Source: Amphiura filiformis
Lineage: Eukaryota
NCBI RefSeq assembly: GCF_039555335.1
Contig: NC_092646.1
Span: 36,859,911-36,923,910, forward strand
Length of the DNA stretch: 64,000 nucleotides
Reading direction: 5' to 3'
The notes under the pieces are model-generated. The model was given only the letters and a program-made list of their open reading frames with translations, was not told the origin of the DNA and ran no database searches. Every line of letters begins with the position of its first letter. The stretch's first letter is position 1. Below, one piece after another: positions 13,627 to 63,813 of the stretch. The translations under genes were made by a program, and so were the position numbers.

Positions 13627-14279
13627 CGTCATGTTTTGCGTCCGACTCTATGGTTCGCGTGAAACTACTCACCAAAGATGACACGAAAATAGAACGTAAA
13701 CGAATGGATCAACTGAAAGTAGGAGATCACGTTGAAAGCTTTGACCCGGAAACCAACTCGGTAGCATTTTCTGAAGTGTACTTCATATCTCATGAAGATG
13801 AAACCAGCAACTCCTCTCGCTTGATAAAGTTAGTGTTCGGATTCGAGGATGAGAAAGAGCTATCTCTTCGTCTGCATTCGAAGCATTTGGTCTACGCGTG
13901 CAGTATTGAGGAGAAAGCTGAACCAAATGTAGCACCCATCACTGATTCCTGTCGGTATCCACCGATGAATCCAGTAACCGCTGGGAGCGTGAAAATAGGC
14001 GATATCGTGTGGCTGAGAAATTCTGCCGGTGAATTCTCGCCAAAACCGGTGATCGACATCGGTGAGTCCTGGAATGGCATTCGACATCCAATGACTCTTA
14101 ACCATTACATCGTTGTAGATGATGTTTTGGCGTCTGTTCATATGTATGATGAAAGTCTATACAGGCAGGTCACGGCTCCGTTGAGGTTTCTGTATGTCAT
14201 CAGCCCGTATATTACCGACACAAGCATTGTTAAGAAGCTGGTCCAAATGTGGGATAATGTTGAAGAAAAATTCTTGTAA
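13627..14279 (+). CDS. Gene 2 terminal exon: Hint (Hog) domain, about 87 percent identical to 1863-2506. Stop at 14277-14279
   Basis: Acceptor tattttaccag|CG, phase 1, compatible with exon D (C+CG=Pro). Same Hint motifs as gene 1. Confidence 0.8.
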
Positions 14280-28610: not shown

Positions 28611-30127
28611 CCATATATTTCACAGGTTTCTTTTTGATCTTAAAGTAACATGTATGCTAGGTTGTATACGAGGTGAGCGAGTGATCCATAGATTAAAGAG
28701 TCTTTAAAGAGAAACAGATACCATACCAATAAGCAAAGTCCCCATGATTTGTATACAATGAGAATTTTCAGGTACTTGTGAGGGTTGACTGTTCTTTCGC
28801 CTGTGTCTTTATGTTGCATGCCTATTTCACTACACTTACACATGTACTGCCAAGTACTTTTCTTGACCTGATTATAATAGTACAGTATTAAAACATGCCT
28901 ATGAGGCAAATGAGCGATCCATATGTTAAAGAGGTACAGATGACACCCAGCAGGCAAAGTCCAAAAGCTTTGTATGCAATGGGAATTCTCACAGTAATTA
29001 CAATAGACCAGTGCCCTCCGGGGTTTGGATGTCGTGTTGTGACCTTGACACGACATCTAAATTCTAACTAAACTATTATAGTGTGCAGTAATGTATGTTG
29101 CATCACCTGTGTACATGTATGTATGCAGAGGTTCTTGTGGTTGGTACTACAGAAGATCATCTTCTCTGTTGGTACACATAATAATGACATTCCTTGTTCT
29201 CTGCTCATTCACATCCTGCATCAATATGTACAAAATACTTATCTTTTTAACTATTCCTATACCTAAGGTTAACAAAACCCACCATTTGAGGAGGGGGGGG
29301 GGGCATATATATCTTTACGAAACATCAGCAGACGGCCTTTGGTATATTCATGTAAATTACGCATGCATTATTTTTAATTAGAGAACAAGGGATCAATGCC
29401 TTACCTATAGCGGGCTGCATATCAATTTTTTAACCGTTATCATCTTCGACCTAACTGTGATGCACCATTAGCTAACCCTGTATGCCACCCTCTTTTGATT
29501 ATTTATTACGCTGTTATCATCTGATCTCAGTTAACAAATTATGTAAAGCATTGATCCGCAATGCATGCATAACATGAATTTACCAAACGTTAAATCCGGA
29601 TTCATAATGATATGATGACAAGTTTTACTAGAGATAAGTGACCTTTAAAGGTTAGATTACAACAATGGCTTTCAAATGAACATTTGCCTCTAGATTTAGA
29701 TTCCTTGTGAATGAGAGCAGCACCGCCATGCAGATTATTTTCAGAGGGAATATGGACATATCTAATCTCTGTGTTGCATGAGACGTCCAACCTCAATCCA
29801 GTCCTGCAGCGTGAACCCTGGATAGGCCCTTGAAGCAAGACCAGGGTGCAAATCCTGTTGTTCTGCGACCCACTTCCTTGCTTTGGTAACAGCTGTACGA
29901 ATAACAACCCCTTTGGGATGGGCTGCTGTCAGGTTGCTTAGGTGTTGTTCTAGTTCCAAGAAGACTATCACTGTTACCAAGATACACTTCACCAAAGTAG
30001 TGCTCTCATGACCTAAACGAAAGACAAAAGACAAACAAAAATCCTCTGCATTATGATTAGTGACCTGAATTGACACAAATTCCTGGGAGTTGTTCTTATG
30101 CCCCATCAAATTCAAACAAAATGTTAA

Positions 30128-30512: not shown

Positions 30513-32719
30513 AATTTTATAAAAGCCTTCCATTTTGTTATGGAAATGTAAGGATCAGGCTGCCAATTCGCCAGCGAAGTGGTTACATTACTCCCTGGTA
30601 ACTGGATCACGCGCCTTTTGGAATTGGTAGTACATGCCATAGGCTTTGTGTTGCGACCATTTCGATCGTGGTGTAGATCAAACTCAAATGCATGATCCAG
30701 TTGACATGGTGATAATTGGATTACACATAACACTTCGCTGGCAAATAGGACCACTCTCTTATTAGGCCTAAAAATAATATTTTCCAACATACAATATTGA
30801 AAAACTTTTAAGTGCACAAAATATGACGGTATAAGCACTGATTTATCATGGTTTACCAGATTTTTTTAAAAATATATTGGAGTAGTTTAGGAATATAACA
30901 GTTTAGGAAGATATACAGATTTGCTGTGTGGAGGACTAGTGACCCATGGCAACATTAATTACACAGAGGCTGGCCCAGCCCATGAGAACTACCTCCTGAT
31001 TGGCCAAAAAGAAGTTTTCATTATCAATTGGACCAATCAGCAACATTGTTAGAATAATTTAACCACACAAAAAATGGGGTGAATTATCTGCAAAGCTCCA
31101 TTCTGGTTGGTGATTAAAGTGAAGACATCATATAATTGACCAATCAGTGGCAATGTTAGATCGGCAGGTAGTGCTCAGGGGGTTAAAGATCATAGCTAGG
31201 TAAAATACACAGAGAAACATGCCTACTTACCCAGCAGTTCTATTCCAGCATCCTTTATTAGTTTGATAAAGTCAGCTACTTTGATCTTACATATGATAAG
31301 AAACTGCTCCGAGAATTTCCAAGATCCATCCTAAAAATAAATTAAACAAATGGCAAAAAGTGTCACCTCAAGACCATTTGATGTTAGGAGGAGGAACAGA
31401 ATTTATTTTTCTGTTAATAGGGACTTGATAATGCAACAAAAGGATCTAAATTGAATTCCTATATGTTTTGATGCAAAAATGTTTAGGGGTCATGCCATCA
31501 ATAAATCCAATTTGTTATATCAAATATAATTGTATAATTTGTGATCAGGATTGCAGCCACAACTTCTCTGACCATAAAGTGGCAAGTACCACCCCTGGGC
31601 ATTGTTCAAGTAGTCCAATGTCCAGTCAAAATAGACTGTTCCAGTTAAAATCCATACACCCCTTATTATGGAAGATATGTCCATAACCTTCCACACAGGG
31701 GGTGTAGATGTCAAATGTTAGGAGTCACCCATTCAACAGGCAACCCCATTTGAAATTCACACTCCCTGTGTGAATGGTTATCATGTCTTCCATCTGGGGC
31801 ATATATATTTCAACTGCAATAGCCCGATCTTAACATTTGGGTGCTTTTACTCATTCAATCACTGAGCCAATTGGATGGATGAAAACTGAAATGACTATAA
31901 TCAATAAAGTGGCCATAACACATTTGGAGAGGGAAATTTAACTTTTCAACAGTGGCCTGAAGTGACTTAGCAAGAAAAGCGTGCAAATTTTGGCTATAAG
32001 CCTCAAAACGGGCTGAAAATATAAGTGCAGAAATTTGGAGTAGTACAAAAAATAGGAAATTCTACATTGAAGGAAATCCTTAATACTTGTAAAATTAGCT
32101 TAATTTTGAGCAATGTACAAGCCTTTTCCAAGAAAGCGGCACAGAAGGCTATCAGGGTTGCCAACCCTCAATTTGGTAGCCCAATTGGGAGAACTTTTGA
32201 AGATATTCCCCATGACTTTTGACAATTTCCTGTCCCAAGGAAACCAAAATTGGGTGAATTTTCAACTTTGGCTCCGATGACTTCCAATAGTTTCCTGTCC
32301 CATAGAAACCAGTGGTTAAGAGGAAAATTGGGCAACTTTTCGATTATTTGACCCGCGATTCGGACTGAAATGTTTTGGTAATACTGCAAGCTATTTGATA
32401 GTAGCCCAATGGTGCTGGTATAGTGCATTTTGGCAACCCTGATCTAACCAGGCTCCAGCCAACATGGCTGGTTTATTGTTTGCATGCTACAGAGCCTAAA
32501 ATAAAAACAAAATGCCGGGAATGCGAAATATGACACACATGATGCTGCCATCGGGGTACAATGGAAGTGTATAGGGTGCTAAAGAAACATAGCATACCAT
32601 GAGATGTACATGACCGGTTGTTCCAGGATATGTGATGGCAGGGTAATTATGGTGGCTTGCATAGCTGACTGCAGAAGCCACCAACACTTCCCTATTTATT
32701 TATTCCCTGATCTTATTAC

Positions 32720-39470: not shown

Positions 39471-41166
39471 TGCCCAGCTCAGTTCCAATTTTGTATGCAT
39501 AAAGTTTACAAATTTCGAATAGTCGATACTGCAATTGCCAGACGGACTAGGTAAGGTACGATTTTAGGGCATCTTCTACTGCCTGTTGCTTTGAGTTGGA
39601 GATAACAAAAATACTATGGCGTTTTGGGTCAAGCTGGGAGAAAAAATCCCAAGTCGACCTAAAATATCGTATCGCATACGATAGACCACCTAAGTTATCG
39701 TAAATCGGTTTCTCCCAGGTCTACCGTAAATTTTGGGTTGTTACATTCGGCCTGCAAACGCCAGGATTTTTAGCCAGATCGACCCAGTCGATCTCGACAA
39801 GCATGCAAATAGGCCTATACATACCCGCACGTGCCCGACCATGGCGATATACATGACAAGTATAAACCATTGTACAGCGTTCAGTCATCATACTTTCGCA
39901 AGCGCCGGTGACTTTTACGATATCTGTTTGTCTTGGCATCTAAATTAATTCACAGTCATAAGCCTAGGCCTACTCTATATTCGTATTTATTAAAGTAGGC
40001 CCACAGAGGCAAATTTAAGGAGATATATCCGGGGGCACTCACATGTTAAGGTGGTGCGGGTATGTGCGGCGCTCAAGGGTCCCTTTCTCAGGCTCTCCGG
40101 CAGTTCCTTAAGCCCCACATTTGGATCTGCTCAAATTTGGAAATAATTTAGAAATTTTTTTTTTTTCTGCCTATAATTTGGCCCTAATTTCAGTTCTTCA
40201 AGCCCCTATTTTGCCCGAAAATCAGTTCTTAGTTCCCAAAGTTTGGCGCTCCACGCCGCACACCCCTACCAAAATTTAAGTTGAGTGCCCCCCCGGGATA
40301 TATCATACTTCAAGTTTCCTAAGTTGCGTCAACACCATCATGATATAGGCCTAACATGCCTAAGCTTAAGCTTACATCCAAGTTCACATGGACGCGTACT
40401 GCGAGTCTGTGACTCGATGTTTCAGACTTGTGAGAAATAAATTATGAGAAGAGGTCAAAAAGGATCAAATAAAATAATCCAACAAAGAATCACCCTGCCT
40501 AAGTGCCGGACATATGCCTGCATGTTTTATATTATTATCCACCACGAAAGGAGTGCCAATTTCTATTAGCCTAAGCTGTCTTTCTATCAACAAGCGCAGC
40601 ATCTCCCATCTTGACCAATTTGGCAATACTAGTAGTACTTTTGCATGGTTTCGTTTGCTAAATGAAATGCTGCAAATGTTTTTATTCTTCTTGTTGGAAG
40701 TTCTTGATTTGTATAAATATATATATATATATATATATTTTCATATCGAAAAGTGCATAATTCTAATAATATCTGTCATTTTAAAAACCCATTCAGTGAT
40801 CCCAGCGCGAGTGTAAAAAATAAAATTGTTTATAAATTGCTTAAAAGTTAAGGCTAAGTCATTCAAATTGTCATTCGGTATTTTTGAAATGAACAAATTA
40901 AAGATTTGGCAAATAACAAAGAAAACAGCAGAATGGACGAAGTAGAAGCCCCACTCAAATGCATGTAACTAATTTATATACTGTCAGTTATATATCTGAA
41001 TTTGGATGATTTTTACGATCATCCGGATGAGCAAATCACTGAATGGGCCTTTATATCCCTCTGTTGTTGGTTGCCCGGCATCAAATTTTGGTTGTCTCGG
41101 GCAGCCGGGCAAGCCATTCTGTGAACCCTGCATGGGATATAGAGGGCAATGCATACCTTTTCATTG

Positions 41167-41326
41167 AAAATGCCCTCTATTTGTTGGTTCTGTGAGGAAA
41201 TCTCACTCTGCATGTCCATGGCCATATGGCATAAGTTGTCCACTTTGTTGGCCACTTCTTGGATGCTTTCATCCATCTGATCTTCCTGAGTATCCTTGGT
41301 TTTGCTTGACCTTGTCCTAATAAATG
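41167..41326 (-). CDS. Exon encoding SNAP-25-family C-terminal (Qc) SNARE motif: ..DTQEDQMDESIQEVANKVDNLCHMAMDMQSEISSQNQQIEGIFNEK
   Basis: Acceptor tttgtttgcatttattag|G, donor AAG|gtatgc. Compare SNAP-25 [36 protein letters not shown]. Confidence 0.65.
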
Positions 41327-43269: not shown

Positions 43270-46200
43270 TATTATTATTATTATTATTATAACACATTTA
43301 TAAAGCGCATAAACGTAAAAAACATCTCAATGCGCTAACAAGCAAAATGGCAAAAGCAACAAACAAAGAGTACTCATTACATTGCAAAATAAATAATGTG
43401 GGAAAAACATGACAAAAGTTAAACAAGGAAAGCAATTCTGTACAGGTGGGTTTTTAGCTGCGATTTAAATTGAGCAAGATTGGGTGATTTATGGATCTGT
43501 TCCGGGAGGCGTTCCACAGTATTTAGGCGGCAACAGCAAAAGCCCGTTCACCATAGGTCTTTGTTCGGGAGCGGACAATTTGCAGATGGTCATTGGGACG
43601 CACATTACCTGACCTAAGGGCACGAGGTGGAATATAAAGGGTGATCAATTCAGACAAGTATGGAGCAGCAATACCGTTGAACTCCTAGTCTGTGAGGAGG
43701 AGGATTTTGAATTGAATTCTCTCCTCAATTGGGAGCCAGTGAAGTTGGTCGCGAAGACTTGGAGTTATGTGATCCCGCTTTTTTGTAAGTGAAATTAGAC
43801 GAGCGGCCATGTTTTGGATTCTTTGGAGTTTGTTTATATCTTTCTGTGGGAGACCGTGGAGGAGTGAATTGCAATGATCAAGCCTGCTGATGACAAAAGC
43901 CTGGATGAGTTTGTGAGTGGAGTCCTGGTCAAGGTATTTGCTTGCAGCTTCCCAATCTTGCTCAATGCAAATGTAGCGCCGCGGCACAAGTTATTGACAT
44001 GCTTGTCCATCCTAAGATGTTGATCAAGAACTGCACCAAGATTTCTCACTTGGGGTGTAGGATGGAAAGCAGCATCACCCACACTGATAGAAGGCAATTG
44101 ACGAGGCATTGCAAAACGAGAAGTGAAATGAATAATTTCTGTTTTGCTATCATTTAAAACAAGAAAATTAGAGGACATCCATAATTTTATGTCCTTGACA
44201 CAATTCTCAATTTTCTCTATAGCGCTGTCCTGATTTTTGACATTGAAACTGATATACAGTTGAGAATCATCAGCAAACTTCATACAGGAGAGTCCATGAG
44301 CAGTAATTATGCTCTCCAGGGGGCAGTATAGAGAATAAAACAAATGGGACCACACACCGACCCCTGTGGCATACCATAATCTATCTCAACAGGATGAGAC
44401 AACACTCCATCAACAAGGACACTTTGACTCCTGTTTTGAAGATACGAGGAGAACAAGTTGAGTGCAGAGCCTCCGACACCATAGCGTGATTTCAGACGAT
44501 TAATGAACACCTTATGGTCTATGGTGTCGAAGGCTGCAGTTAAGTCTAGGAGGACCAAAATGGTCTCACCACCTTGTTTATCAAGATCCATGAGGATGTC
44601 ATTATACACACGAGTTAGGGCAGTCTCAATACTATGGTACTGCCTGTACGCCGACTGAGAAGAAGCAAAAAAATTGTTAGAGTTTAAATACTCAACATAC
44701 TGCTTCATAGCACAGCGCTCAATGACCTTACTCAGAAATGCCAAGTTAGAAATAGGCCTGTAATTTTTCATTGTTTCTGGGTCGAGACTGGGCTTCTTCA
44801 GAATCGGCGTAACAAGGGCAGATTTCAGAGCATTGGGAAAAACACCCGTTTTAAGAGACATATTGGTAATTGTAGTGATATGTGGCAAAAGCAAGTCTAG
44901 ATTGTCTGCTATCAAACAAGCAGGAAGGGGATCAAGAGAACATGATTTAATTTTTGATCCCTTGATAATTTCAAAAACCTCGTCTTCGGTCACTGGACAA
45001 AATTTGGTAAAAGAGCTACTACACGATTCCTCGTTGAGCCCTGCAACAGAGCAATGACTCTGTTGTTTTGCAGCAAGAGTACAACGGAGAGCCCTAACTT
45101 TGTTGTCGAAAAAACTCTGCAAAATCTTGGACAAGGTTCTCCTTAGAGCTGTGGGAAGGGAGCACCTGTTTTGGTTTGTGCACAGACAATCTATCAATGA
45201 CACGGAAAAGTTGTTTTTGGTCACAGTTTTTGATTTCAAGTTGATGATATTCTCTCTTGGAAGCATTAAGTGCTTCTCTGTATACTTTACATTTTTCAGT
45301 AAGTATTTGTTTGTGAACTGTCAAACCCGTCTTTTTCCACTTGCGCTCAGCTGCACGTTTAACACGTTTGAGGCTGTGGAGGTTCTCATTGTACCAAGAT
45401 GTATTTGGTCTTGGAATAATACTATGTGTAGTCAATGGGGCATGGTTATCCAAGACTTCACTTAAAACTGAGTTGTAATTACTAACATATATGTCTAAAT
45501 CATTACAAGGATCATTGAGATTAGAAGACAGAATATCATTACGAAATTCTTCAGTGTTTATTTGGCGGATCTTGCGAAACTTGATCTGAATACGGCGCAA
45601 CTGGAGGACGAACAAGATTGACATTAAACCTGATAACATAGTGCGGTAAAGGCATAGTATGCACCACATGAACGCCACCTATGCAGTTGTTATTCTCATT
45701 AGTAATGAGAAGATCAAGCCAATGTCCTGCAGTATGCGTTGGTTCAGATACAAGCTGGACAAGACCTGCTGAGGCTAGGATCTCATTTAAGGTTCTAGTG
45801 TCACTTAAGTCAGGTATGTCCATATGGAAGTTAAAGTCACCACAGATGATCATGGGTGTAGTACACAGACATGCAGTTTCAAGTAAGCTGTTGAATTCTT
45901 GGAAGAAGACAGATGGTGGAACTTTGCTACACTTGCTGGGCGGTCTGTAGATGGTTATCAGCTTCAGATGATCTTGCATTCCTGAGGTGATTGACAATTC
46001 AAGGCAATCAGATGATTGGAAACTATGTTTTTTCTCAACAGTTTCAAATCCGTCACGGAGGATAACACAAATGCCTCCACCTCTCTTGCCTAAGCGGGGA
46101 AGTGTGTGGAATTTGTAACCAGGGAGAGTGTTTGATATGTCTGCAAAGGCATGATCATCTCGGCTATCACCATAGAGCCATGCTTGGTTAGTGCAAATAT

Positions 46201-46700
46201 GTCCAGTTGCTCAGATTCTATGAAATCACCAATGTCAGTGATTTTGTTCATCATTGATTGTGCGTTCCACACAGCCATTTTACACGCGCTGGATTTACTT
46301 TGATGAACAGTGATAGGATGGGTTGGTTTTAGGCTCTCTGCAGTAGACTTTTTTCCTCGTCTAGTGGGCTTTTGGGCATTTAGACCAAGGGACTTGATCT
46401 TTTCCCAGTCAGCTTGGGCAAGTCTAGCAGTAACAGAGTTGTACTTGAGAAGTTCTTTCCTAGTGTATTTGACAGGTCCACACATTGTTTTGATGATGTA
46501 GTCAATTTGATTAACAAACTGATAAGTGGATACTTGAGAGTGGTAATCAATGAGATGAGTACTCACTTGAGAGTTAGACTGATCACAACTTGAGATGGAA
46601 TCAGTTGTTGTCACAGATAATGCAATAATCAATATTGCAACACTGTAGTAACCAGTATTATGTAGTAGCCATTGGCAGTTTTAAGCTTTCCCAGATGAAA
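43270..46700 (-). mobile_element. CR1/L2-like non-LTR retrotransposon, near full length but frameshifted (ORF1-like region, apurinic endonuclease, RT, C-terminal domain). 3' end with (ATT)n-like tail
   Basis: Minus-strand ORFs. Endonuclease (AVWNAQSMMNK..DIFALTKHG; ..ICGDFNFHMD..). RT (..LLDLTAAFDTIDH.., YGMPQGSVCGPICFILY). C-terminal ISRLDHCNSLL motif. Six broken ORFs, so inactive copy. Confidence 0.85.
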
Positions 46701-51803: not shown

Positions 51804-53021
51804 CTTTCTTCTTTGTCTTCTCTACTATCAGTGAATCTTCTTACTGGTGGTTGGGGCACACCTTGTGTAGATTCAGGTTTTCCAAGCTTCTTGGTTACAT
51901 TTTCTGAGGGAATTGATTGTTCTTCATAAGAACGATAAGAAGCATAAGCATATGATCTGAAAGCTTTTCTTGAGGGAACTGATTGCGTACTGCCACGATC
52001 AAGTGATATTCCTGATGCTGCAGGAGGTCGTGCTGCTTGTGCTTTTATAGGAGCTGATGCCCTTTGTCTAGATGTTCTTGCTAGTGCTGCTGAAGGGGAA
52101 CGTTTGGCTTGTGTCGGGCTTGTGCTTTCGTAAGCAATGCCACGAGCAAGCAGTGACCGAGGAGATGCACTGTAAGCTGCTCTGTCATATGCAGGTGGAA
52201 GAGGGGAGGTGCACCGCCAGGAGCAGATGGTGGAGGGGGAGGTGCACCGCGACGAGCAGGTGGTGGAGGAGGTGCACTATAAACTGCAGGTCGTGGAGGG
52301 GGAGGTGCACTATAAGCTGCAGGTGGTGGAGGGGGAGGTGCACTATAAGCTCCAGGTGGTGGAGGGGGAGGTGCACTATAAGCTCCAGGTGGTGGAGGGG
52401 GAGGTGCACTATAAGCTCCAGGTGGTGGAGGGGGAGGTGCACCACCAAAAGCAGGTGGTGGAGGGGGAGGTCCACAACTACCACCAGGTACACCACCAGA
52501 TCTAAAAGCCGGAACTGAACTGTACGGTTCTAATTTATGGAGACCACTTACTGTAGGTGGTGATGGTGGTGGTGGTGAAGCTTGTTGGGCCATTTGAGGT
52601 GGGAAACGTTGAGGTGCAGAAAGAGCGGGCGATTTAGTTACAGACATGGAAGGTGGAGGTATATACTTAAAAATCATACGAGTTGGTGAAGGTTGGTCAT
52701 CATCGTCATCAAATAGACCGAAACCCATATCATCATCAGAATCATAGTCAGATTCCTCATAATCTTCATCCTCTATTTCTTTTACTGCTGCTGCTGCTCC
52801 ACCTGCTGAATTGGGTGTTGGGGATGGTATAGTGGGTGATGCCGATTTCTTTTTCTTCTTTTTTGATGTTTGAGGTGAAGCTAAATCTGATTTTGTGAAT
52901 GATGACTGTTCATAGCTCATAAACTCAGTGTCTACAGACGCTAAATCTACAAGACCAAGTTCTTCAACTTCTTCTGGTTGTAAGCAAACATCTTCATAAT
53001 CATCATCAAAATCAGCAGGTG
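51804..53021 (-). CDS. Large exon of a proline-rich protein. Acidic N-part with DDDMGFGLFDDDDD, then eleven 33-nt repeats encoding GAPPPPPPGAYSA (FH1/WASP-like polyproline), then Ser/Ala/Tyr-rich tail. Reading frame shifts by 1 nt near 52203-52206
   Basis: Acceptor tttatttaccag|CA (53023-53022) and donor AG|gtaag (51803-51799). Long ORFs in two frames joined by a single missing G in the run at 52203-52206 (other repeat units have five Gs). Confidence 0.6.
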
Positions 53022-54484: not shown

Positions 54485-54769
54485 CTTCCTCGGCCATGCA
54501 ATAATCAATCATATTCACGACATCAATTTCACTGTCTCTGCTCCTGCTTCTGCTTCGACTACTTAAACATTCATCTAGTTCATCCAGAAGATCTTCATCT
54601 GGACTGTGGCTCAAGCTCATCATCATTCTTTTTTCCCTTCTGGGACGATAGGCAAACCGTTTCCCTCCCTCCTCCTCCCCCTCCTCCTCCCCCTCCTCTT
54701 CATCCTCCTCCTCCGAGGATGATGATGATGACGATGACGACGATGACGATGACGACGATGACGATGAGT
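54485..54769 (-). CDS. Candidate exon: poly-Ser / acidic / RS-like (SSSSS..EEEDEEEGEEEG..SRSRSRSRDSEIDVVNMIDYCMAEE). Possibly upstream exon of the proline-rich gene, or a terminal exon ending at stop 54468
   Basis: Good acceptor cttttttatgattttatag|AC. Open frame. Phase-compatible weak donor G|gtttgt. Confidence 0.3.
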
Positions 54770-61441: not shown

Positions 61442-61541
61442 CTTTTTCCATAATCTCCCTCCTGAAATATGACGCCTGTTCATCTATTTTACCTGTGTCA
61501 CCCTGTACATCATAGTAGAACTTAACAATATCAAGTATGGC
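61442..61541 (-). CDS. Exon 3: AILDIVKFYYDVQGDTGKIDEQASYFRREIMEK
   Basis: Acceptor caattgtag|G, donor AAG|gtatgtg. Phase 0-1. Confidence 0.5.
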
Positions 61542-63209: not shown

Positions 63210-63356
63210 CTTGTAGAAAACAGGATTATTGTAAGACACTTTTTCTTTGGTTAGTTCCAGAGCATCCTCGTAGTATCTTTGAGCTGTCAAAATTGAAAAC
63301 GTTTCCTCTTTGTGAGCCCTTTGAAGTAAGTCTTCAACTGTTTCCTCAGGGGAGAC
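63210..63356 (-). CDS. Exon 2: VSPEETVEDLLQRAHKEETFSILTAQRYYEDALELTKEKVSYNNPVFYK (TPR-like A..YY.DAL.L....NP.FY pattern)
   Basis: Acceptor ttattcttttag|G, donor AAG|gtatgt. Phase 0-0. Confidence 0.55.
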
Positions 63357-63684: not shown

Positions 63685-63813
63685 TTCTAGGGTCTGTGCT
63701 TGTCCAGGAGGACTCTTGGTTGGTTCCCATCCCATGTAAGTCAATGTATCAATCTCTGCTTTCCTCAACAGCTCTTCTATGTCCACGCCTTTCTTTTCTT
63801 TCTTGTCTTCATC
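63685..63813 (-). CDS. Exon 1 (in window) of unknown minus-strand gene: DEDKKEKKGVDIEELLRKAEIDTLTYMGWEPTKSPPGQAQTLE
   Basis: Acceptor ttttccccaaag|G, donor GAA|gtaagt. Phase 0-0. Confidence 0.5.

What the first reader, a model, noticed from the sequence alone, without database searches (positions are those of the whole stretch)
52700..52760. Internal mimic of the ribosomal P-stalk C-terminal tail (DDDMGFGLFDDDDD)
The acidic N-part of the proline-rich protein contains SDYDSDDDMGFGLFDDDDD. The conserved C-terminal peptide of ribosomal P0/P1/P2 stalk proteins is (E/D)n-MGFGLFD. It recruits translational GTPases and is the docking site of ribosome-inactivating proteins. An internal copy within an FH1/WASP-like polyproline protein is unexpected. 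It might bind the same partners (trGTPases, GCN2, RIP-like toxins) or may be coincidence.
Basis: partly seen in the sequence, partly recalled or inferred. Interest (0 to 1): 0.5.

Follow-up and report, generated by a model that had tools for sequence, protein, structure and literature searches.

The report
Ribosomal stalk tail inside PARP4-like linker
An exact copy of the ribosome's factor-docking "P-stalk tail" lies inside the large disordered exon of a vault-PARP (PARP4)-like gene, next to fragments resembling other core host proteins, so it looks like a built-in docking or bait peptide and not a coincidence.

Summary
SDDDMGFGLFD is encoded on the minus strand at 52708-52740. It is preceded by a P2-type hinge (SAGGAAAA plus an acidic run) and followed by DDDDD and about 300 more codons of the same exon. 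Chance is excluded by Pfam Ribosomal_60s above its gathering score, a best PDB hit to P2 (E=6e-7) and 0/100 shuffles.

The host is not an FH1/WASP-like protein. Splice phases link nine exons into the 3' half of a PARP4-like VIT-vWA gene. The 1218-nt motif exon is the counterpart of PARP4's single large disordered exon ("exon 30"), known in vertebrates as a hotspot of positive selection.

The same module occurs internally in a full-length PARP4 homolog, in VIT-vWA, DUF4139 and WD40 proteins, and in other metagenomic proteins. So it is a recurrent module. I found no description of it in the literature available here.

The window's linker also carries fragments resembling 14-3-3, eEF2 switch-I and the SNAP-25 Qc helix. 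Homologs carry actin or histone-H3-tail copies.

My best reading, which is inferred, is a P2-derived docking or bait peptide for proteins that bind the stalk tail. Expression, binding partner and a 1-nt frame change downstream remain unresolved.

The parts
52708..52740 (-). Core stalk-tail copy SDDDMGFGLFD
   Evidence: Exact match to a degenerate back-translation, with 0/100 shuffles matching. Translation.
52693..52833 (-). Full P2-like module: TIPSPTPNSAGGAAAAVKEIEDEDYEESDYDSDDDMGFGLFD followed by DDDDD
   Evidence: Pfam PF00428 at 33.0 bits, profile 51-88/88. Best PDB hit is P2 4v6i_Bv, E=6.4e-7. Shuffle test 102 vs 38+-4.4.
51804..53021 (-). Motif exon (1218 nt), the largest and disordered linker exon. 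It encodes an acidic LIR-like DDDYEDV, poly-K, the P2 module, S/P-rich sequence, GAYSAPPPPPP repeats, an S/A/R-rich part, and ends in RFTDSREDKEE.
   Evidence: Acceptor ttatttatttaccag| and donor GAAAG|gtaaga. The two parts are stop-free in 0/2000 and 6/2000 shuffles. Positional counterpart of PARP4 exon 30 (PMC4038475).
52190..52475 (-). 33-nt tandem repeat, about 8.8 copies, encoding GAYSAPPPPPP
   Evidence: TRF: period 33, 87% matches.
52196..52208 (-). 1-nt frame change inside the last Pro repeat, at a C4 run where the repeat consensus has C5
   Evidence: The upstream part is in the motif frame. The downstream part is in the frame that fits the donor and the next exon. Assembly error versus real frameshift is unresolved.
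51804..51838 (-). eEF2 switch-I-like element RFTDSREDKEE(R), whose last codon is completed by the next exon
   Evidence: Compared with eEF2 RFTDTRKDEQER, whose sequence was verified in the PDB. Local alignment 49 vs 26.7+-4.0, 0/500 shuffles. It co-occurs with P-tails in L052 and L010.
54485..54769 (-). Exon E-1: poly-Ser, an acidic run, ...DEDLLDELDECLSSRSRSRSRDSEIDVVNMIDYCMAEE
   Evidence: Acceptor ttttatag|AC and donor GAAG|gtttgt. The carried-over G plus CA gives Ala, in phase with the motif exon.
61442..61541 (-). Exon C (candidate): AILDIVKFYYDVQGDTGKIDEQASYFRREIMEK
   Evidence: The only candidate with good splice signals and the required phases 0->1. The 14-3-3-like alignment runs across the B|C junction.
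63210..63356 (-). Exon B; from AQRYYEDALELTKEK... onward it is 14-3-3-like
   Evidence: Clean splice sites. About 80% nt identity to related contig L001 while the introns do not align. 14-3-3 hits at E=0.009.
63685..63813 (-). Exon A (..GVDIEELLRKAEIDTLTYMGWE..)
   Evidence: Clean splice sites. 81.5% nt identity to L001. In L001 it follows exons about 60% identical to PARP4-like L008 aa 1017-1195.
41157..41316 (-). SNAP-25 Qc-SNARE-like exon (160 nt, phase 2->0)
   Evidence: PDB SNAP-25 at E about 2e-8. An exhaustive search finds only SNAP-25 exon fragments. It is in phase with both neighbouring exons and is needed to keep the frame.
31231..31330 (-). C-terminal domain exon 1 (DGSWKFSEQFLIICKIKVADFIKLIKDAGIELL)
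   Evidence: Strong acceptor and donor. Hit by both CTD probes. Aligns to the L008 and VIT-vWA CTDs.
29762..30012 (-). C-terminal domain exon 2 with stop codon (..ILVTVIVFLELEQHL..KARKWVAEQ..MQHRD*)
   Evidence: Acceptor tcgtttag|GT is in phase (G+GT=Gly). Top hit of the CTD profile. Weak collinear match to PARP4 MVPID 1604-1705.

Best explanation
WHAT IT IS (well supported): a roughly 42-residue copy of the C-terminal hinge plus tail of a P2-type ribosomal stalk protein. It is embedded in the large, intrinsically disordered linker exon of a PARP4-like (vault PARP, VIT-vWA) gene, between the ITIH-like region and the helical C-terminal domain. The copy is homologous to P2 and is not convergent low complexity. 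Equivalent internal copies sit at the same place in a full-length PARP4 homolog and in VIT-vWA proteins.

HOW IT MOST LIKELY WORKS (inferred): it acts as a short linear docking or bait peptide. It keeps every residue that stalk-tail partners are known to use: the DDD patch, Phe/Leu/Phe for the hydrophobic pocket, the final Asp, and the CK2-type Ser-Asp-Asp-Asp. A flexible linker would therefore present a perfect imitation of the ribosomal stalk tail. Proteins that dock on the stalk could be captured and brought to the PARP4-like enzyme or its particle, to be sequestered or ADP-ribosylated. My first choice of partner is foreign stalk binders such as ribosome-inactivating toxins or viral factors. 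The alternative is the cell's own translational GTPases or GCN2.

The neighbouring fragments fit an array of target-mimic peptides. They resemble 14-3-3, eEF2 switch-I and the SNAP-25 Qc helix in the window, and actin or the histone H3 tail in homologs.
For: Homology to P2 rests on Pfam above its gathering score, with the hinge contributing 13 bits. The best PDB hit is P2 at E=6.4e-7 with the shared SAGGAAAA, and the shuffle test gives a z of about 14.

The coding context is supported by in-phase splice junctions across nine exons down to a stop codon. The reading frames are open far beyond what shuffling gives. Exons A and B are conserved in a relative whose introns do not align.

The host identity comes through a chain of matches. 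Upstream exons in the relative are about 60% identical to L008. L008 has BRCT-PARP-VIT-vWA, and it matches PARP4 residues 621-1182 at E=2.7e-163.

The module recurs. In the 62 pattern hits I count 14 VIT-vWA-type hosts, 10 DUF4139-type hosts and 22 hosts that are other or undetermined. Only 3 look like P proteins and 8 like chance.

The binding determinants are preserved: F111/L113/F114 in the pocket, D115 bonding to Arg235, and a DDD contribution (PMC6162817, PMC5086656).

In vertebrate PARP4 the disordered region is one large exon. It is hypervariable, is the only site of positive selection, and has been proposed to engage pathogen factors (PMC4038475; PMC10450202).

Other conserved-protein fragments share these linkers: SNAP-25 (E=2e-8), 14-3-3 (E=0.009; 2/2000 shuffles), eEF2-like (0/500), actin in L008 (E about 1e-21) and H3 tails in L061/L062.
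Against: There are no expression data for this organism. A 1-nt frame change lies downstream in the same exon.

I could recover no ortholog of the motif exon itself. Nothing in 5.8 billion indexed proteins or 1.84 billion exhaustively searched proteins resembles the linker. Conservation of the motif in this lineage therefore rests on distant homologs that were found by searching for the motif, which is an ascertainment bias.

The copy is internal, and whether partners tolerate the loss of the free C-terminal carboxylate is unknown. The solved vertebrate PARP4 (1724 aa) shows no such tail, so the module is not universal in the family.

No binding, decoy or ADP-ribosylation evidence exists. The N-terminal half of the gene (PARP, VIT, vWA) lies outside the window. 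The match of the C-terminal domain to PARP4 MVPID is weak (E=0.15 and 0.29).
Confidence: 0.4

Rival explanations
1. Endogenous recruitment. The tail copy recruits the cell's own stalk clients (eEF2, eEF1A, eRF3, GCN2) to the PARP4-like enzyme, for regulation or ADP-ribosylation of the translation machinery, and not foreign proteins.
For: The stalk tail's natural partners are translational GTPases and GCN2 (PMC6421407 and PMC11624264, listed). An eEF2 switch-I-like element sits in the same exon and co-occurs with P-tails in two other proteins. The host family carries a PARP catalytic domain in L008.
Against: It does not explain why copies of unrelated proteins share the same linkers: 14-3-3, SNAP-25, actin, the H3 tail and Pol II CTD heptads. 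VIT-vWA hosts that show no PARP domain in the sequence recovered carry the module too. There are no interaction data.
Confidence: 0.2
2. Neutral relic. A fragment of an RPLP2 gene or transcript was captured into a fast-evolving, permissive disordered exon and persists without function.
For: The disordered PARP4 exon is hypervariable in length and sequence (PMC4038475). It seems to accumulate foreign fragments. The vertebrate PARP4 in the PDB lacks the module.
Against: All 11 tail residues are identical to the consensus although the rest of the linker cannot be aligned even to homologs. The same module is present at the equivalent place in distant family members and in other families, with varied codons. 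Some hosts have second, degenerate copies (MGFSLWD, MGFALMD), which suggests turnover under selection.
Confidence: 0.25
3. Dead locus. The gene is a pseudogene or the exon is not expressed, so the peptide is never made.
For: A 1-nt frame change lies inside the motif exon. The region is rich in transposons, with a LINE in the adjacent intron. No exact or close protein is on record.
Against: Only one lesion is seen, it sits in a C-run of a tandem repeat, and the motif lies upstream of it. All other junctions are in phase down to a stop codon. The long frames are open at 0/2000 and 6/2000 shuffles. Exons A and B are conserved in a relative.
Confidence: 0.1
4. Chance resemblance in acidic low-complexity sequence.
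For: About 8 of 62 pattern hits in the metagenomic and viral scans lack an acidic flank and look like chance 8-mers in bacterial ORFs.
Against: 0/100 shuffles of the window match. Pfam scores above its gathering threshold with the hinge contributing. The P2 match is E=6.4e-7 and the shuffle z is about 14.
Confidence: 0.01

Closest known systems
C-terminal domain of ribosomal stalk proteins P1/P2/P0 (Pfam PF00428)
   Same: It has the identical 11-residue tail SDDDMGFGLFD, a P2-type Ala/Gly hinge (SAGGAAAA), an acidic run with CK2-type serines, and a flexible context.
   Different: There is no N-terminal dimerisation domain. The tail is internal, followed by DDDDD and hundreds of residues, and the host is a PARP4-like protein. 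In every solved P protein the tail ends the chain.
PARP4 (vault PARP) disordered linker, human exon 30 (Daugherty et al. 2014, PMC4038475; Suskiewicz et al. 2023, PMC10450202)
   Same: Same position, between the ITIH-like VIT-vWA region and the helical C-terminal domain. It is encoded by the single largest exon, is disordered, and is hypervariable in sequence and length.
   Different: The cited papers do not report a ribosomal-stalk copy or other host-protein fragments there. The 1724-aa PARP4 in the PDB gives no P-tail match.
Synthetic P-stalk peptide mimics that block ricin A chain (PMC6162817)
   Same: Free copies of the tail compete with ribosomes for toxin binding. This is the mechanism a natural decoy would use.
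   Different: Those are synthetic, C-terminally free peptides. This is a genome-encoded internal copy whose binding has not been tested.
Integrated decoys and 'tripwire' target mimics in innate immune sensors (plant NLR integrated domains; NLRP1/CARD8 protease tripwires). From my general knowledge, not tested here.
   Same: Copies of pathogen-targeted host sequences are embedded in an immune-linked protein. An exact copy cannot be evaded without losing the real target.
   Different: No NLR architecture is present, no read-out is known, and the immune role of this gene is only inferred from vertebrate PARP4 evolution.

Membership tests
Ribosomal stalk P1/P2 (PF00428) | Conserved C-terminal peptide (E/D)n-MGFGLFD | tested here: met
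   SDDDMGFGLFD is exact.
Ribosomal stalk P1/P2 (PF00428) | Ala/Gly/Pro hinge followed by an acidic stretch before the tail | tested here: met
   The hinge alone scores 13.3 bits, collinear with profile 51-82. SAGGAAAA is shared with P2.
Ribosomal stalk P1/P2 (PF00428) | N-terminal helical dimerisation domain (profile positions 1-46) | tested here: not met
   The Pfam alignment covers only profile 47-88. The upstream sequence is acidic/Ser-rich linker with no Pfam hit.
Ribosomal stalk P1/P2 (PF00428) | The tail is the protein's C-terminus | tested here: not met
   The frame continues for about 300 codons in the same exon and then through three more exons.
PARP4 / VWA5A-type VIT-vWA proteins | ITIH-like VIT + vWA region | not testable with these tools
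   It lies upstream of the window. Indirect support: the relative's contig L001 has four exons 59-63% identical to L008 aa 1017-1195 just before exon A. That L008 region matches PARP4 621-1182 at E=2.7e-163.
PARP4 / VWA5A-type VIT-vWA proteins | Long disordered linker after the ITIH-like region, encoded largely by one big exon | tested here: met
   A 1218-nt low-complexity exon with no domain hits apart from the P2 module. Compared with PMC4038475.
PARP4 / VWA5A-type VIT-vWA proteins | All-helical C-terminal domain (MVPID / VWA5A CTD) | tested here: inconclusive
   Two in-phase terminal exons align to the CTDs of L008 and VIT-vWA proteins at the hallmark positions. The AF2 model is all-helical but pLDDT is 51. 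L008 CTD vs PARP4 1604-1705 gives E=0.15. Window CTD vs that segment gives E=0.29. The profile vs PDB gives no hit.
PARP4 / VWA5A-type VIT-vWA proteins | BRCT + PARP catalytic domain (separates PARP4 from VWA5A-type) | not testable with these tools
   It lies outside the window and outside the 11.4 kb held of L001. It is present in homolog L008.
SNAP-25 family Qbc-SNAREs | Qc SNARE motif | tested here: inconclusive
   One exon matches SNAP-25 residues about 140-189 (E about 2e-8) and ends at the conserved ...K| intron position. The last exon, covering layers +4 to +8, was not found.
SNAP-25 family Qbc-SNAREs | Qb SNARE motif and Cys-rich palmitoylation linker | tested here: not met
   No match in the window or in L001. 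The exon is flanked in phase by PARP4-like linker and CTD exons.
   Pfam on all assembled exon products shows none. Only the GAYSAPPPPPP repeat is present.

The most novel reading that the evidence does not exclude
The disordered linkers of PARP4/VWA5A-type proteins, and of some other families, are arrays of near-exact copies of peptides from host hubs that toxins and effectors attack or that many enzymes read. Examples are the ribosomal stalk tail, eEF2 switch-I, 14-3-3, the SNAP-25 SNARE helix, actin, the histone H3 tail and Pol II CTD heptads. Such integrated decoys or baits would capture foreign proteins and deliver them to a PARP or vault-type particle. That would give a concrete, testable function to the rapidly evolving 'exon 30' region of vault PARP, and possibly to vaults themselves.
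Probability: 0.2. Interest if true: 0.9.

Novelty: new variant of a known kind. Interest (0 to 1): 0.72.

Why it matters
The stalk tail is the universal landing pad for translational GTPases, for GCN2, and for ricin, Shiga-type and other ribosome-inactivating toxins. In the PDB and in the papers I could search, it appears only at the C-terminus of P0/P1/P2.

A genome-encoded internal copy in a PARP4-like protein, recurring in several protein families, would have two consequences. First, the stalk tail would also serve as a portable linear motif. Second, it would link vault PARP's enigmatic, positively selected disordered exon to a defined set of ligands.

That turns two open questions into bench experiments using peptides, toxins and eEF2. 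One is what the PARP4 linker recognises. The other is what vault-associated PARP is for. It also suggests natural anti-toxin decoys.

Tried and rejected
1. FH1/WASP-like host: rejected, because no actin-regulator domain is present.

2. A SNAP-25-family SNARE gene with an expanded linker. This was my working idea. I rejected it because neither a Qb motif nor the last SNARE exon could be found, and the SNARE-like exon is flanked in phase by PARP4-type linker and CTD exons.

3. H3-tail-, actin- or Pol II CTD-like stretches in the window's own protein: not significant against shuffles.

4. A ubiquitin-like domain at the exon A/B junction: marginal only (per-domain scores are insignificant; 5/1000 shuffles).

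5. Orthologs of the motif exon: none found by the word-indexed search, the exhaustive HMMER search or exact look-up. The related contig ends 1.2 kb past exon A.

7. A single-exon search between exons B and E-1 with strict thresholds found nothing. Relaxed thresholds gave exon C.

8. A CTD profile against the PDB gave no hit. I did not attempt a fold search because the AF2 model has pLDDT 51.

9. A literature search for prior descriptions of stalk-tail copies in vault, PARP4, vWA or DUF4139 proteins, or of PARP4 decoys, found none in the held library. Subscription-only papers are not covered.

Full report
OBSERVATION

The window is eukaryotic and animal-like. It has 37% G+C, spliceosomal introns and LINE elements. 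On the minus strand, DDDMGFGLFD is encoded exactly at 52708-52737, and SDYDSDDDMGFGLFDDDDD spans about 52693-52752. It is the only MGFGLF in the six frames. No shuffle of the window gives a match, even with two mismatches.

The resemblance to stalk proteins goes beyond the motif. Pfam Ribosomal_60s matches above its gathering score (28.8 vs 28.1 bits; profile 47-88/88). The bare motif gives 17.3 bits. The hinge plus acidic part without the motif gives 13.3 bits, aligned collinearly. The two together give 33.0 bits.

Against the PDB, all 28 hits are P0/P1/P2 tails that end at the chain terminus. The best is a P2 (E=6.4e-7) that shares the hinge octamer SAGGAAAA. A 34-residue alignment to human P2 scores 102 against 38+-4.4 for locally shuffled sequence. 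So this is a P2-type hinge plus tail, about 42 residues long, and it is internal.

GENE CONTEXT

The peptide lies in a 1218-nt exon (53021-51804) with a good acceptor and donor. Its N-part (174 codons) is stop-free in 0/2000 dinucleotide shuffles, and its C-part (132 codons) in 6/2000.

The two parts are in different frames. One base is missing in a C-run of the last GAYSAPPPPPP repeat, near 52196-52208. This lies downstream of the motif. It is either a homopolymer assembly error or a recent frameshift, and I could not decide which.

Every other junction is in phase:
- Exon A is 63813-63685, exon B is 63356-63210 and exon C is 61541-61442 (phase 0->1).
- Exon E-1 is 54769-54485, and the G it carries over plus CA gives Ala.
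- The motif exon ends AG|, and the next exon supplies G to make Arg.
- The next exon is 160 nt (41316-41157), and the model needs it to keep the frame.
- Two terminal exons follow (31330-31231 and 30012-29762), where G+GT gives Gly, ending in a stop codon.

HOST IDENTITY

Exons A and B are about 81% identical at DNA level to an ENA contig from a related organism (L001), while the introns do not align. Immediately upstream of exon A, L001 has four collinear exons 59-63% identical to residues 1017-1195 of a 2006-residue metagenomic ORF, L008.

L008 has BRCT, PARP regulatory and catalytic, VIT and vWA domains. Its VIT-vWA region matches full-length PARP4 residues 621-1182 at E=2.7e-163.

The window's two last exons align to the C-terminal domains of L008 and of VIT-vWA proteins at the hallmark positions. 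The link to PARP4's MVP-interacting domain is weak (E=0.15 and 0.29). The AF2 model is all-helical but of low confidence.

The window therefore holds the 3' half of a PARP4-like gene. The motif exon is the counterpart of the disordered ITIHL-MVPID linker. In vertebrate PARP4 this linker is encoded by the single largest exon (human exon 30). It is hypervariable in sequence and length, and it is the sole focus of recurrent positive selection (PMC4038475; PMC10450202). The VWA5A clade has the same plan of VIT-vWFA, long disordered loop and CTD (PMC10539598).

IS AN INTERNAL COPY UNIQUE?

No protein in 5.8 billion indexed sequences or 1.84 billion exhaustively searched sequences resembles the linker as a whole. 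The only hits are ordinary SNAP-25 exon fragments that match the SNARE-like exon.

A degenerate DNA pattern for D-MGFGLFD followed by a sense codon found 61 metagenomic contigs and 1 viral contig. I sorted them as follows:
- About 8 lack an acidic flank and look like chance.
- 3 are P proteins with a one-residue extension.
- 14 show VIT-vWA-type hallmarks, including the PARP4 homolog L008. Where both hallmarks are recovered (L028, L030, L050, L061), the module lies between ...TSFVAVD and the CTD.
- 10 are DUF4139-type, with the module inserted in the domain.
- 22 are other or undetermined hosts. One is a WD40 protein. One has three tail copies and scores 46.5 bits on PF00428.

Some hosts have second, degenerate copies (MGFSLWD, MGFALMD). 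Codons vary freely. That last point says little by itself, because these hits were selected for the peptide.

Beyond the module, these hosts are not homologous to the window's linker. The solved 1724-aa PARP4 gives no tail match. I found no paper linking the GFGLFD tail with vault, PARP4, vWA or DUF4139 proteins, or proposing PARP4 decoys.

COMPANION FRAGMENTS

The same gene's linker contains other pieces that resemble conserved host proteins:
- A SNAP-25 Qc-helix exon (E about 2e-8). Its end coincides with the conserved ...K| intron position. The gene has no Qb motif and no final SNARE exon.
- A 60-residue 14-3-3-like stretch running across the exon B|C junction (E=0.009, with nearly all hits being 14-3-3 isoforms; 63 vs 33.9+-5.5, 2/2000 shuffles).
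- RFTDSREDKEER at the end of the motif exon, compared with eEF2 RFTDTRKDEQER (sequence verified; 49 vs 26.7+-4.0, 0/500 shuffles).
- A marginal ubiquitin-like stretch.

RF[TCS]D[TSV]R also occurs in two other P-tail proteins, against my rough estimate of about 0.002 expected by chance.

Homologs carry other copies. L008 has an actin fragment covering residues 8-71 (E about 1e-21). L061 and L062 have histone H3 tail copies, and L052 has Pol II CTD-like heptads. My guesses that the window's own protein holds H3, actin or CTD copies failed the shuffle test.

MECHANISM

Shown: the sequence identity, the homology to P2, the coding context, the host family, and the recurrence of the module.

Inferred: its function. 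All residues reported to contact ricin A chain and trichosanthin are present. These are Phe111/Leu113/Phe114 in a hydrophobic pocket, Asp115 bonding to Arg235, and the DDD patch (PMC6162817, PMC5086656). The CK2-type serines are present too. The difference is that the last Asp is followed by DDDDD and not by a free carboxylate.

I consider a docking or bait peptide the most likely role. An exact copy of an unchangeable host target, displayed on a flexible linker of a PARP4-like protein, could capture stalk-binding proteins. This fits the Daugherty model, in which this exon recognises pathogen factors. It also fits the companion fragments, many of which come from well-known toxin or effector targets (that last point is from my general knowledge).

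The alternatives are recruitment of the cell's own eEF2 or GCN2, a neutral relic of fragment capture in a permissive exon, or a dead locus. Chance is excluded.

VERDICT

The finding is real and more interesting than reported, though in a different context. It is a P2-derived stalk tail inside the hypervariable disordered exon of a PARP4-like gene. It belongs to a recurrent class of internal stalk-tail modules that I could not find described.

My confidence is high for what it is (about 0.85 for P2 homology and for the PARP4-like host) and moderate to low for how it works (about 0.4). Expression, the binding partner, the frame change, the N-terminal domains and the fold of the C-terminal domain all remain open.

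Noticed in passing
window 41157-41316 (-): An exon encoding a SNAP-25-type Qc-SNARE helix (TRSSKTKDTQEDQMDESIQEVANKVDNLCHMAMDMQSEISSQNQQIEGIFNEK; PDB SNAP-25 E about 2e-8). It ends at the conserved SNAP-25 ...K| intron position. It is spliced in phase between the PARP4-like linker exon and the C-terminal-domain exon. No Qb motif or final SNARE exon is present.
   Followed up: yes
window 63210-63284 and 61442-61541 (-): A 60-residue stretch across exons B and C resembles 14-3-3 helices (AYQEAFEISK...PIRLGLALNFSVFYYEI). PDB E=0.009 with almost only 14-3-3 hits, and 2/2000 shuffles reach the score.
   Followed up: yes
window 51804-51838 (-), plus L052 and L010: RFTDSREDKEER resembles the eEF2 switch-I / eEF2-kinase site RFTDTRKDEQER (the kinase-site label is from my general knowledge). 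RF[TCS]D[TSV]R co-occurs with P-tail modules in three independent proteins, against about 0.002 expected by chance.
   Followed up: partly
window ~52196-52208 (-): A one-base frame change in a C-run of the last proline repeat splits the motif exon into two frames. It is either an assembly homopolymer error or a recent frameshift.
   Followed up: partly
window 52987-53007 (-); L008 aa ~1520: An acidic LIR-like element, DDDYEDV, is present, with DDDWNGV in the PARP4 homolog L008. It is a possible Atg8-family binding motif in the same linker.
   Followed up: no
window ~63685-63720 / 63330-63356 (-): A marginal ubiquitin beta1-beta2-like stretch at the exon A|B junction (KSPPGQAQTLEVSPEETVEDL vs [21 protein letters not shown]; 5/1000 shuffles). 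It is only partly kept in the relative L001.
   Followed up: partly
L008 (aa 1319-1382), L061, L062, L052: Metagenomic proteins that carry the internal P-tail also carry diverged copies of other conserved peptides in the same disordered regions. L008 has actin residues about 8-71 (E about 1e-21). L061 and L062 have the histone H3 N-terminal tail. L052 has Pol II CTD-like heptads.
   Followed up: partly
L059, L002, L011, L035, L060 and others; L015: The P-tail module is inserted in the middle of DUF4139 domains in about 10 contigs. It also sits after a WD40 propeller (L015, ...ESDDDMGFGLFDDDDTQDIKYI, the closest flank match to the window).
   Followed up: partly
window 1838-2506 (+) and 13650-14279 (+): Two paralogous ORFs encode Hint modules (Pfam PF01079, E=7e-20 and 6e-19).
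   Followed up: partly
window 7480-8292 (+): An ORF with an AID/APOBEC-like deaminase signature (H-x-E ... SPCxxC). The Pfam APOBEC_N/SNAD4/NAD1 hits fall just below their gathering scores.
   Followed up: partly
window ~43800-46630 (-): A LINE-type retrotransposon (endonuclease plus reverse transcriptase ORFs) lies inside the 10.5-kb intron between the motif exon and the SNARE-like exon.
   Followed up: partly
window 54660-54769 (-): Exon E-1 begins with an 18-residue poly-Ser run followed by EEEDEEEGEEEGEEEG. The opposite strand reads as poly-Pro. The coding status of this microsatellite-like part rests only on splice phase.
   Followed up: no
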